The notes under the pieces were generated by a model, which made no database searches, was not told the DNA's origin, and was given only the letters and a program-made list of their open reading frames with translations. Shown one piece after another: positions 49,243 through 50,369 of a stretch of 64,000 bases of DNA (position 1 is its first letter; every line of letters begins with the position of its first letter). The position numbers were made by a program, and so were the translations under genes. This stretch comes from an uncultured Pseudomonadota bacterium (lineage in GTDB: Bacteria; Pseudomonadota; Alphaproteobacteria; RUG11792): the NCBI GenBank assembly GCA_902798535.1, contig CADBWU010000001.1:7053-71052 (forward strand), in the 5' to 3' direction.

Positions 49243-50369
49243 TTACTCCTCCTCCTGCCCCACTTCTTCTATCATCTCCTCCTCTCCTTCTTCTTCTTGC
49301 CCCTGGTACTGCTCCTCTGCTTCTTCGTATTGTGCATTATCTTCCTCGTAATTTTGTTCCTGCTTTTCCTCATCTTCTCGCGCATACTCTTCTTCCTCTA
49401 CTTTTTCATTATCGTTTTTCCACTGTTGCAAATCGTCATCAGGAAGGTGTACTAACCCATCAAGTAAATCTAATGCATATTGACATTCTTTTTGCATATT
49501 TTCTGCAGATGTGTAGAAGATCTCAGAGCCCTCGTATTCCTCTTCCTCCATAGAGAAGATGTATTTTTTTATTTTGGAAATATATAGCTTCCCCTTAACA
49601 TAGTTATAACTTGGGCGATATTGATAATAAAAATCATCGTTCACATCGCGCAGCTGCTTTATGTCATTGTTGTATGATCCAAATTCGGGCGATATGTAGT
49701 ATTTAGTTGAATGATGCTGAATATAATATTGTTGTTTACATTCGGCTACAGCAGATAACCCACTACCCATATCAAGCGCTTCGATATACATACATATATC
49801 GTTTTTTGATTGAGATAATTTTTCATAAAGTTCCTTTTTTGCATTTTCATTATTATAGATATTCTTATACTTCTCCTCATAATGCCGATAAACTGTGTTT
49901 AGGCAAAATTTTAACAATTCTTGATCCGAATGGGCATCACCCGGCAAATTTATTTTTACATTCACATAGTTATATAGCATTACCGCATTCCAGTTTTCTC
50001 GACTATATTCAAGAACCTTTGGATTAGCGAATTCTATGACCTCGAGCTTACCACCAATATTCTTCCCTTTAAACTCATTCTCTTCTGTGACACAATCTCC
50101 TATAGCCTTACCAATCACTTTTACTATTGAATCCCAATAGTACCCATTTTTAATCCAGGCATGCTGAGTCTCAACTTTAGGATTTTGTATTATATTATTA
50201 GCTTTAATTCTCCACCATATTTGGTTCAGTTGATTTCTTACTTGATGAAGATCATCTTTATGAATTTTATCTTCCGTAGCTATAACATCGCTTAAAATGG
50301 AAGCAAATATAGCTATAGAACTACCTAAGCATAGCCCCCCCCCCCGAACAAACACTTCTTTTTAAACAT
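49243..50369 (-). CDS. Hypothetical secreted protein with poly-acidic C-terminal tail; 5' end interrupted by a poly-G tract (phase-off, pseudogene or assembly error)
   Basis: The track ORF 49243..50355 starts at GTG. The ATG at 50369-50367 has a strong RBS (AAGAGGTG, 7 nt spacer) and encodes MFKKKCLFGGGG, but it is in the +1 frame relative to the body because of 11 G (50335-50345). The C-terminal 70 aa are E/Q/Y-rich. Confidence 0.6.
50335..50345 (-). repeat. Homopolymeric tract, 11 x G on the coding strand
   Basis: Counted directly: 11 consecutive C on the + strand, between the RBS-proximal ATG and the long ORF. Confidence 0.95.

What the first reader, a model, noticed from the sequence alone, without database searches (positions are those of the whole stretch)
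50335..50369. 11-nt poly-G tract separates a strong RBS plus ATG from its ORF: candidate slipped-strand phase-variation switch
On the - strand the sequence reads AAGAGGTGtatagaaATGTTTAAAAAGAAGTGTTTGTTC-(G)11-CTATGCTTAGGT.
- From the RBS-proximal ATG (50369), translation gives MFKKKCLFGGGGYA and then a stop.
- With 12 G (or 9), the same ATG would read MFKKKCLFGGGGLCLGSSIAIFASILSDV... straight into the 370-aa ORF, creating a textbook signal peptide.
- As assembled, the long ORF can start only at a GTG with no convincing RBS.

Homopolymeric G/C tracts at the 5' ends of surface or secreted protein genes are the classic contingency-locus mechanism in host-adapted bacteria. An 11-mer of G stands out in this AT-rich sequence.
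Basis: partly seen in the sequence, partly recalled or inferred. Interest (0 to 1): 0.6.

Follow-up and report, generated by a model that had tools for sequence, protein, structure and literature searches.

The report
Poly-G on/off switch, secreted-protein family
The 11-G run is real and is one copy of a switch shared by about 15 related secreted-protein genes in an uncultured rumen bacterium, where gaining or losing one G turns each gene on or off: a well-known bacterial trick found here in a new gene family and lineage.

Summary
In detail: 11 G at window 50335-50345 (minus strand). They separate a strong SD + ATG (50369) from an intact 363-codon body.

The tract is not a one-off. At least 15 paralogues in this 0.95-Mb genome share the same promoter, hairpin, SD, ATG, MFKKKCLF and (G)n leader, with n = 6 to 17. 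Runs of 9 or more G/C number 22, against about 1.9 expected, and 12 of them lie in this leader.

Other public assemblies are 100% identical to the window over about 1,490 nt except for tract length (10 G versus 11 G). At a sister locus, 3,532 nt are identical except 9 G (in frame, a 376-aa secreted protein on 6 contigs) versus 10 G (out of frame, this genome). A close JGI strain differs in tract length at 5 of 5 cleanly comparable loci. Another species of the genus keeps the tract (n = 6 to 12).

Out-of-frame copies keep full-length bodies.

Caveats:
- At the window locus only out-of-frame lengths (10, 11) have been seen.
- Comparator assemblies of the same haplotype agree with each other.

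The protein family is uncharacterised (no Pfam, NCBIfam or PDB match). It shares its N-terminal module with USP-type deubiquitinases. The mechanism is known; the family and lineage are new.

The parts
50335..50345 (-). Homopolymeric G tract (11 G), the candidate slippage site. In the in-frame state it encodes the Gly run in the hydrophobic core of the signal peptide.
   Evidence: sequence; it is the only variable position across 5 assemblies (10 or 11 G); the same position holds 6 to 17 G in paralogues and in another species.
50367..50369 (-). Primary ATG start codon of the leader MFKKKCLF. As assembled, its frame ends at TAG 50327-50325 after 14 codons.
   Evidence: the same ATG opens 344-463-aa ORFs in paralogues with 9 G.
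50379..50384 (-). Shine-Dalgarno AAGAGG, 9 nt upstream of the ATG.
   Evidence: It is invariant across paralogues and strains.
50353..50355 (-). Alternative GTG start in the frame that the body occupies when n = 2 mod 3 (as here). It has no SD and would give MFVRGGGLCLGSS...
   Evidence: Gene callers use it (P0056, P0063, P0065). In copy C7, which has an interrupted tract, only this frame is open.
49243..50334 (-). Body of the gene: the rest of the signal peptide (LCLGSSIAIFASILSDVIA, likely cleaved before TEDK), the family core (helical bundle with KVIGKAIGDC and NWNAVMLYNY motifs), a beta-sheet region, a long C-terminal helix and an acidic tail. The stop codon is included.
   Evidence: ORF. 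(invariant columns). (AF2 model, pLDDT 79.6). (100% identical in 4 assemblies).
50420..50449 (-). Sigma-70-like promoter, TTTGCA-18-TAGAAT with TG before the -10 (equivalently TTGCAT-17-TAGAAT). It is conserved in front of nearly all family members.
   Evidence: scan. (conservation across paralogues).
50385..50408 (-). Small GC hairpin GGGTATTGATACCC followed by GTG(T)7, lying between the promoter and the SD. It is probably a 5'-UTR stem-loop. Its stem shows compensatory changes (T-A to C-G) between copies.
   Evidence: terminator-like hit. (compensatory GGGTA/TACCC versus GGGCA/TGCCC).
50474..50590 (-). GC-rich double palindrome that forms the distal part of the family's conserved 5' cassette.
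   Evidence: the same two hairpins precede most family members in the JGI strain; identical in 4 assemblies.

Best explanation
The tract is a slipped-strand (simple-sequence-repeat) translational phase-variation switch. The window gene is one member, currently out of frame, of a family of about 15 genes that all carry the same switch.

Each member has a conserved promoter, a short 5' hairpin, a strong SD, an ATG, the codons for MFKKKCLF and then a run of G. When the run is a multiple of three (9, also 6 or 12), the ATG frame runs into the body. The product is a pre-protein with a Sec-type signal peptide in which the Gs encode 2-4 glycines.

Gain or loss of one G during replication shifts the body out of the ATG frame.
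- With n = 1 mod 3 the body has no start codon at all.
- With n = 2 mod 3 (the window's 11 G) the body is in frame only with an SD-less GTG 14 nt downstream of the ATG. Expression is then expected to be off or very low.

Because each locus switches independently, the population can display many combinations of these secreted proteins. The family core is an N-terminal module also found on USP-type deubiquitinases of the same genome, so the proteins are probably host-interaction factors.

Shown: the anatomy, the family, tract-length polymorphism between otherwise identical assemblies, ON and OFF alleles at sister loci, and intact bodies in OFF copies.

Inferred: slippage as the cause, reversibility at this locus, secretion, and biological role.
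For: 1. Family-wide switch. Searches show the same leader at 15 or more loci, with n = 6, 7, 9 (x6), 10 (x2), 11 (x3) and 17. Two contigs end inside the tract.
2. Excess of tracts. There are 22 G/C runs of 9 or more against about 1.9 expected, and 12 are in this leader.
3. Window locus. Assemblies ERZ1029111, ERZ925094 and ERZ27279993 are 100% identical to the window over about 1,490 nt except 10 versus 11 G. The JGI strain also has 10 G.
4. Sister locus C3:27043. Over 3,532 nt the only difference is 9 G (ON, P0009, 6 contigs) versus 10 G (OFF, this genome). A 12-G ON allele also exists (P0077).
5. C15 locus. It has 9 G (ON) on 8 contigs and 11 G in the JGI haplotype. The C34 locus shows GGG, GG and OFF calls.
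6. Against the JGI strain, 5 of 5 clean orthologous pairs differ in tract length, while the unique flanks are 99.1-99.8% identical with no gaps.
7. OFF copies keep 221-522-codon open bodies. The two CDS indels between the strains are both 3 nt long.
8. The tract is conserved at the same position in another species, RUG14192/G003, with n = 6 to 12.
9. The assembly is not systematically offset. Its 8- and 9-mers inside long ordinary ORFs are in frame, and its own 9-G products are found letter for letter elsewhere.
10. Precedents exist for the mechanism in other intracellular or host-adapted bacteria (PMC4514472, PMC11466379).
Against: - No assembly shows an in-frame allele (9 or 12 G) of the window locus itself. 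Two haplotypes that differ by 2.5-5% at this locus both carry out-of-frame lengths.
- Comparator assemblies of the same haplotype agree with each other at each locus examined. The window's own data set is the outlier, by +1, at both clean loci. The tracts are therefore stable at consensus level, and a technical miscount in this one data set cannot be fully excluded.
- dN/dS between strains is 0.6-0.7, from few substitutions, and is not clearly below 1.
- MutS is present, so there is no special mutator background.
- No read-level heterogeneity, RNA or protein data could be obtained.
Confidence: 0.75

Rival explanations
1. This copy is a silent, decaying member. The family may be phase-variable, but this locus has been stuck out of frame and is drifting towards a pseudogene. 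The 10/11 G difference would then be neutral tract drift, not a working switch.
For: - Only OFF lengths (10, 11) are seen, in 5 assemblies and 2 haplotypes. The ON products are absent from 15 billion proteins.
- dN/dS is 0.73 (6 synonymous, 20 non-synonymous changes).
- Real pseudogenes exist in the family: C12 with 17 G plus an internal deletion, and the 5'-truncated C12:23870.
Against: - The 363-codon body is fully open and keeps all invariant family residues.
- Both indels against the JGI strain are in-frame 3-mers, and there are no stop codons among 26 substitutions.
- Sister loci with the same anatomy do show both ON and OFF alleles.
Confidence: 0.12
2. Expression is leaky rather than switched. 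RNA-polymerase slippage on the long G run, and/or initiation at the in-frame GTG, would give a steady low level of full-length protein whatever the DNA length. The tract would then tune dosage rather than toggling the gene.
For: - With n = 2 mod 3 the body is in frame with a conserved RTG start.
- Copy C7 has an interrupted tract (GGGTGGGG) and a dead ATG frame, yet it keeps a 474-aa ORF in that RTG frame.
- Transcriptional slippage on long homopolymers is established in reduced endosymbiont genomes (my own knowledge, not tested here).
Against: - The GTG has no SD and lies inside the translated leader.
- Copies with n = 1 mod 3 have no start codon at all yet are just as well preserved.
- The modal length is exactly 9, the in-frame value. 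This argues that the ATG frame is the selected one.
Confidence: 0.1
3. Simple assembly or sequencing miscount. The true tract at this locus would be in frame (9 or 12 G) and the gene is an ordinary, constitutively expressed secreted protein.
For: - Homopolymers of 10 or more are the hardest positions for any platform.
- The window's data set differs by +1 from the others at two loci.
Against: - Five assemblies from different studies and assemblers give 10 or 11, never 9 or 12.
- This assembly's 9-mers in housekeeping ORFs are in frame.
- Paralogues cover 6 to 17 G.
Confidence: 0.03

Closest known systems
Neisseria pilC and other poly-G/C contingency genes of Neisseria, Haemophilus, Campylobacter and Helicobacter (own knowledge)
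   Same: An uninterrupted G run of about 9-13 lies in the signal-peptide-coding 5' end of a secreted or surface protein gene. A change of one G by slipped-strand mispairing shifts the frame and turns translation on or off.
   Different: There is no sequence or fold relation to these proteins. The organism is an uncultured rumen alphaproteobacterium with a reduced genome, not a mucosal pathogen. About 15 loci share one near-identical promoter-leader-tract cassette.
Neisseria Opa proteins (own knowledge)
   Same: A multigene family of about 11 loci in which each copy carries its own repeat tract inside the signal-peptide-coding region. Copies switch independently and give combinatorial expression.
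   Different: The Opa repeat is the pentamer CTCTT, whereas this one is a mononucleotide. Opa proteins are beta-barrel outer-membrane proteins, whereas this family is predicted to be a mostly helical soluble protein.
Chlamydia pneumoniae Pmp and Cpn1054 paralogous families; the C. trachomatis CT166 poly-G tract (PMC4514472)
   Same: Obligate intracellular bacteria with small genomes in which poly-G tracts inside members of expanded paralogous families (or an effector gene) vary in length and give ON/OFF frames. In CT166, 9 G is also the ON length.
   Different: Pmps are autotransporters and are unrelated in sequence. In Chlamydia only a few family members carry tracts, and no shared promoter-leader cassette has been described.
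Bartonella SSR contingency loci, including the vblA/vblB secreted lipoprotein family (PMC11466379)
   Same: A host-associated alphaproteobacterium in which mononucleotide repeats in a lineage-specific, Sec-secreted gene family vary between strains and shift the frame. The authors propose that this toggles expression and affects host specificity.
   Different: It is a different protein family (lipoproteins with a Cys at the cleavage site). It has far fewer copies, and experimental evolution evidence exists there but not here.

Membership tests
Simple-sequence-repeat (homopolymer) translational phase-variation locus | An uninterrupted repeat long enough to slip (G/C run of about 8 or more). | tested here: met
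   11 G at 50335-50345. The genome-wide count of runs of 9 or more is 22, against about 1.9 expected.
Simple-sequence-repeat (homopolymer) translational phase-variation locus | The repeat lies between the start codon and the body, so a length change shifts the reading frame. | tested here: met
   The ATG frame stops after 14 codons with 11 G. Paralogues with 9 G read through to 344-463 aa.
Simple-sequence-repeat (homopolymer) translational phase-variation locus | Tract length varies between otherwise identical or clonal sequences. | tested here: met
   10 versus 11 G is the only difference in about 1,490 nt at this locus. 9 versus 10 G is the only difference in 3,532 nt at C3:27043. This evidence is at consensus (assembly) level only.
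Simple-sequence-repeat (homopolymer) translational phase-variation locus | Both ON and OFF alleles occur at the same locus (reversibility). | tested here: inconclusive
   Not seen at the window locus, where only 10 and 11 occur and the ON products are absent. Seen at sister loci: C3:27043 (9, 10, 12), C15 (9, 11) and C34.
Simple-sequence-repeat (homopolymer) translational phase-variation locus | Mixed tract lengths within one population (read-level heterogeneity). | not testable with these tools
The only indirect hints are contigs that end inside or just after tracts (C14, C23, L005).
Simple-sequence-repeat (homopolymer) translational phase-variation locus | The OFF allele keeps an intact coding body. 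| tested here: met
   A 363-codon open body here, and 221-522 codons in other OFF copies. C12 and L002 are exceptions.
Sec-secreted protein (type I signal peptide) | A positively charged N-region, a hydrophobic core and a small-x-small cleavage motif. | tested here: inconclusive
   Read by eye: MFKKK / CLFGGGLCLGSSIAIFASIL / SDVIA|TE. No signal-peptide predictor was available. AF2 leaves residues 1-31 disordered.
USP/UCH deubiquitinase (Pfam PF00443) | A UCH catalytic domain with Cys and His boxes. | tested here: not met
   The window protein has no Pfam hit. Only its N-terminal module is shared with the USP protein at 55585-57300 (hhalign 94%, E 1.4e-7). That protein and C34:3149 do carry PF00443.
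Neisseria Opa / Chlamydia Pmp families | Sequence or fold homology (beta-barrel OMP or autotransporter). | tested here: not met
   No Pfam, NCBIfam or PDB sequence hit, and no Foldseek hit with E below 0.4. The model is a helical bundle plus a small sheet.

The most novel reading that the evidence does not exclude
An uncultured rumen alphaproteobacterium with a reduced genome is probably a symbiont of protists. It devotes about 4% of its 0.95-Mb genome to a lineage-specific family of modular secreted effectors with a shared N-terminal module, some fused to eukaryote-type USP deubiquitinases.

About 15 of these genes would be run through a portable promoter-leader-poly-G cassette. The cassette would act as a three-state switch: full expression from the ATG frame, weak expression from the GTG frame, and none. 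It would also be shuffled between loci by gene conversion.

The result would be a combinatorial, heritable but reversible effector repertoire, used for bet-hedging across host species or host defences. This would be contingency-locus biology in a protist endosymbiont rather than an animal pathogen.
Probability: 0.3. Interest if true: 0.75.

Novelty: new member of a known kind. Interest (0 to 1): 0.55.

Why it matters
Contingency loci are textbook biology for mucosal pathogens. They are hardly documented in uncultured, genome-reduced symbionts of microbial eukaryotes; a full-text search found no paper linking Holosporales with phase variation.

This case offers four things:
- A multi-locus example in which tract lengths can be scored directly from metagenomes.
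- A new, large secreted-protein family: 29-41 matches per genome in four species, absent from most sister genera.
- A link between that family and eukaryote-like deubiquitinase effectors.
- A practical warning for annotation. Gene callers mis-start or truncate these genes (VFVRGGG..., 291-aa and 301-aa calls), and assemblies break at the repeated 5' cassette.

Tried and rejected
- **Reads.** I used independent public assemblies instead.
- **Function by homology.** Pfam, NCBIfam, a PDB profile search and Foldseek against the PDB with a good AF2 model all gave nothing significant.
- **RNA structure.** The fold of the leader RNA is no more stable than shuffles (z = -0.26), so an RNA-structure explanation of the tract region was dropped.
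- **Loss of mismatch repair.** Rejected as the cause of tract instability, because MutS is present.
- **Systematic +1 homopolymer error in this assembly.** Considered seriously, because the window's data set is +1 at several loci. Rejected as a general artefact: 8- and 9-mers inside long ordinary ORFs are in frame, and the genome's own 9-G products occur letter for letter on up to 8 other contigs. It remains possible for individual 10- or 11-mers.
- **L005 (14 G).** Excluded as evidence, because the contig ends 9 nt after the tract.
- **L002 (9 G).** First counted as ON, then corrected to OFF, because a 1-nt insertion lies 16 nt downstream.
- **Alternative-start frame.** My first computation used the wrong offset. 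It was redone.
- **Leader pattern scan of genome contigs.** It found nothing, so the exact leader is confined to this species group.
- **Order-level taxonomy (Holosporales).** This comes from earlier notes and was not verified. Record titles say only 'Alphaproteobacteria bacterium' or 'uncultured proteobacterium' from cattle and goat rumen.

Full report
**1. The observation**

On the minus strand the window reads AAGAGG (50384-50379), 9 nt, ATG (50369-50367), TTTAAAAAGAAGTGTTTGTTC, 11 G (50345-50335), then CTATGCTTAG. The ATG frame gives MFKKKCLFGGGGYA and stops at TAG 50327-50325. The only long ORF (49243-50355, 370 aa) starts at GTG 50355, and no SD-like sequence precedes it. The description and coordinates are correct.

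The window is C1:7053-71052 of a 945,849-bp, 61-contig assembly with 37.4% G+C.

**2. The tract is not an isolated oddity**

G/C homopolymer counts fall about 4-fold per added base up to length 7 or 8 and then stop falling. The counts are 26 (7), 10 (8), 14 (9), 3 (10), 3 (11), 1 (14) and 1 (17). That is 22 runs of 9 or more against about 1.9 expected. A/T runs decline monotonically.

Twelve of the 22 runs sit in the same sequence context. A leader search found at least 15 loci with ...AAGAGGTGTATAGAA-ATG-TTTAAAAAGAARTGTTTRTYC-(G)n-CTAKGCTTAGGTAG... or a close variant (MLNRKCLF, MMHNRSKKCLF, MLNKKYLF). The lengths are n = 6, 7, 9 (x6), 10 (x2), 11 (x3) and 17. Two contigs (C14, C23) end inside the tract.

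By actual ORF continuity, the canonical-leader copies are distributed as follows:
- 5 are in the ATG frame (ON).
- 3 have the body in the frame of the SD-less RTG start (the window, C41 and C52, all 11 G).
- 1 has the body in a frame with no start codon (C3:31134, 10 G).
- 1 is truly broken: C12 has 17 G plus an internal deletion that removes the KVIGKAIGDC motif.
- 2 are too close to contig ends to judge.

**3. A conserved 5' cassette**

Alignment of 16 loci from a JGI rumen metagenome shows that almost every member carries the same upstream module. In order, it contains:
- two GC-rich palindromes;
- TTGCAT-17-TAGAAT with an upstream TG;
- a 5-bp GC hairpin followed by a T run;
- the SD, the ATG, the leader and the tract;
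- the rest of the signal peptide.

The promoter and hairpin were also picked up by the consensus scan at 50449-50420 and 50408-50395. The hairpin stem shows compensatory T-A to C-G changes between copies.

Among six copies, median pairwise identity is about 70% for the upstream 330 nt, 74% for the leader and signal peptide, and 49% for the mature body. The proximal roughly 110 nt are nearly identical.

The 117-bp double palindrome noted separately by the first stage (50474-50590) is therefore part of this family's cassette.

**4. Does tract length vary at one and the same locus?**

(a) *The window locus.* I fetched this locus through the neighbouring 108-aa gene. ENA assemblies ERZ1029111, ERZ925094 and ERZ27279993 are 100% identical to the window over about 1,490 nt (1,127 nt for the shorter one). 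This span covers the cassette and the whole CDS. The single exception is the tract: 10 G instead of 11. ERZ27280590 (a 71,856-nt contig, probably the window's source) has 11 G. The JGI strain, about 95% identical here, has 10 G.

Exact-sequence look-ups agree. The gene call that requires 11 G (370 aa) is on 3 contigs. The 291-aa call typical of 10 G is on 6 contigs. The products expected from 9 or 12 G are not in the collection.

(b) *Sister locus C3:27043.* Across 3,532 aligned nt, this genome and ERZ1029111 differ at one position. The ENA assembly has 9 G, in frame, giving the 376-aa P0009 seen on 6 contigs from at least 4 samples. This genome has 10 G, out of frame. P0077 is a 12-G (GGGG) allele of the same body with a different leader variant.

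(c) *C15 locus.* This genome's 9-G product is found letter for letter on 8 contigs. The JGI haplotype has 11 G (VFVRGGG..., P0063 and P0065).

(d) *C34 locus.* GGG, GG (with a mosaic leader) and 301-aa out-of-frame calls all occur.

(e) *This genome against the JGI strain.* The unique upstream flanks are 99.1-99.8% identical with no gaps. Even so, all 5 cleanly comparable orthologous pairs differ in tract length: 10/9, 11/10, 9/8, 9/11 and 11/10. In the JGI strain 2 copies are ON, 5 are in the RTG frame, 5 are in the frame with no start and 1 is broken.

(f) *Another species.* In a different species of the genus (RUG14192/G003), the same leader carries 6, 6 (T-interrupted), 8, 9, 9, 9, 10, 10 and 12 G. 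In RUG11852 and RGIG3458 the Gly codons at this position are mostly short or interrupted runs. This suggests the long pure run evolved from a Gly-Gly-Gly motif in the signal peptide.

**5. Cautions**

Comparator assemblies of one haplotype agree with each other at every locus I could check. The window locus is 10 G in four assemblies, C3:31158 is 9 G in four, and C41 is 10 G in two. The window's data set is +1 at both clean single-difference loci.

This made me test for a technical offset:
- Three 9-mers and two 8-mers inside long ordinary ORFs are in frame in this assembly.
- The genome's own 9-G products are found in other assemblies.

There is therefore no general offset, although a miscount at an individual 10- or 11-mer cannot be excluded.

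The tracts thus change far faster than point mutations: they are the only differences in 1.5-3.5 kb. They are not so fast that every sample's consensus differs.

At the window locus no in-frame allele has been seen. dN/dS against the JGI strain is 0.73, from 6 synonymous and 20 non-synonymous changes. A slide towards pseudogenisation of this particular copy remains possible. Against that, the 363-codon body is open, all invariant family residues are kept, and both CDS indels between the strains are 3 nt long.

MutS is present.

**6. The protein**

There is no Pfam or NCBIfam family and no PDB sequence match. An AF2 model built from 40 homologues is confident (pLDDT 79.6, pTM 0.78). It shows:
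- a disordered signal-peptide region (residues 1-31);
- a helical bundle (33-212);
- a small beta sheet (232-281);
- a long C-terminal helix and an acidic tail.

Foldseek finds nothing in the PDB (best E 0.44, TM below 0.2).

The family is large and restricted to this lineage. There are 41 matches in this genome, covering about 40 kb or roughly 4% of it (my sum of the ORFs). Three congeners have 39, 40 and 29 matches, and a fourth has 2. Two other genera of the same bacterial family have 17 and 5. The other 17 genera of that family that were sampled have none, and the 16 sampled genomes from other families of the class have none either. All database homologues come from metagenomes.

The family core is homologous to residues 63-211 of the USP deubiquitinase at window 55585-57300 (hhalign 94%, E 1.4e-7). 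That protein and another long family member (C34:3149) carry PF00443 UCH domains. The core is therefore an N-terminal module shared by diverse secreted, probably host-directed proteins.

**7. Mechanism proposed**

Slipped-strand mispairing changes the G run by one base. With n = 0 mod 3 the SD-ATG frame produces the pre-protein, in which the Gs encode 2-4 glycines in the signal-peptide core. Other lengths end the ATG frame after 11-15 codons.

With n = 2 mod 3 (the case here) the body is in frame with an SD-less RTG 14 nt downstream of the ATG, which might allow weak expression. Copy C7 has an interrupted tract and keeps only this frame open. With n = 1 mod 3 there is no start codon at all.

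About 15 independently switching loci would give a combinatorial repertoire.

Mosaic alleles indicate gene conversion between cassettes, which would move tract states between loci:
- the same body occurs with different leader variants and tract lengths (P0009 versus P0077; C34 versus P0071);
- in C12, the upstream flank matches JGI locus L011 while the body matches JGI locus L004.

**8. Comparison with known systems**

The mechanism is the classical contingency locus. The closest analogues are:
- poly-G tracts in signal-peptide regions, such as Neisseria pilC, and the multi-locus Opa family with its CTCTT repeats (both from my own knowledge);
- poly-G tracts in the C. pneumoniae Pmp and Cpn1054 families and in C. 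trachomatis CT166, where 9 G is ON (PMC4514472);
- SSRs in a Sec-secreted Bartonella lipoprotein family (PMC11466379).

None of these is related in sequence or fold. Searches of the paper library found nothing linking Holosporales or rumen ciliate symbionts with phase variation.

**9. Verdict**

The kind of mechanism is already known, while the gene family and the host lineage are new. The remaining uncertainty is whether this particular copy still switches. Read-level, RNA and protein evidence are also lacking.

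Noticed in passing
window 50474-50590: The GC-rich double palindrome that another first-stage note flagged as a stand-alone module is the distal part of a conserved 5' cassette of about 330 bp. The cassette precedes most members of this gene family, in this genome and in the JGI strain. The centre of the second palindrome (GGTCAATGACC units) varies between copies and strains by 4-17-nt indels.
   Followed up: partly
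window 55585-57300, and genome C34:3149 (679 aa): The family's N-terminal module (with the NWNAV.LYN motif) also forms the N-terminus of at least two USP/UCH-domain proteins. Other long members (C28, 917 aa; C22, 674 aa; C3:37323, 746 aa) have the module plus long C-terminal regions with no Pfam hit. By eye, C28 and C22 have Cys-box-like motifs.
   Followed up: partly
genome C12:1-1172 (minus strand) and C12:23850-24430: Two degraded family copies. One has the longest tract (17 G) and an internal deletion with a frameshift that removes the KVIGKAIGDC motif. The other has lost its promoter, SD and ATG (6 G remain). The upstream flank of the second matches JGI locus L011, but its body matches JGI locus L004, which points to recombination between family members.
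   Followed up: partly
genome C7:28048-28056 and C32:120-128; C8:26952-26959 and C30:8330-8338; C28:1412-1420; C1:4388-4401: Other long G/C runs occur outside this family. Two pairs lie in their own repeated contexts (TTGCAAAAATGCAACA-G9-... and TTTTTCC-G8/9-TACTTCAAAT). One 9-mer lies at the 5' end of a 471-codon ORF (C28). A 14-mer lies in C1, just outside the window. These may be further contingency loci.
   Followed up: no
related genomes G012, G005, G008, G004: Other genera of the same bacterial family carry many very long G/C runs, for example 32 G and 25 G inside contigs of G012 and 22 G in G005. Some are at contig ends and may be artefacts. Long G/C tracts may be a trait of the whole lineage.
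   Followed up: no
window 50385-50391, and the same position in paralogues: The T run between the small hairpin and the SD also varies by one base between orthologues and paralogues (T7, T8, interrupted forms). This is a second short homopolymer in the 5' UTR, and its effect is unknown.
   Followed up: no
genome contig ends (C8, C10, C14, C20, C23, start of C1) and public contigs L035-L039: Many contigs of this MAG and of public assemblies break inside the repeated 5' cassette or at the G tract. The family is therefore a main cause of assembly fragmentation, and its true copy number is uncertain.
   Followed up: partly
L078/L079 (JGI-type haplotype of the C3:31158 locus): This allele has 9 G but also a 1-nt insertion 16 nt downstream of the tract (GGTAGTAGCTATA versus GGTAGTACTATA). 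It is therefore out of frame despite an 'in-frame' tract length. Frame state cannot be inferred from n mod 3 alone.
   Followed up: yes
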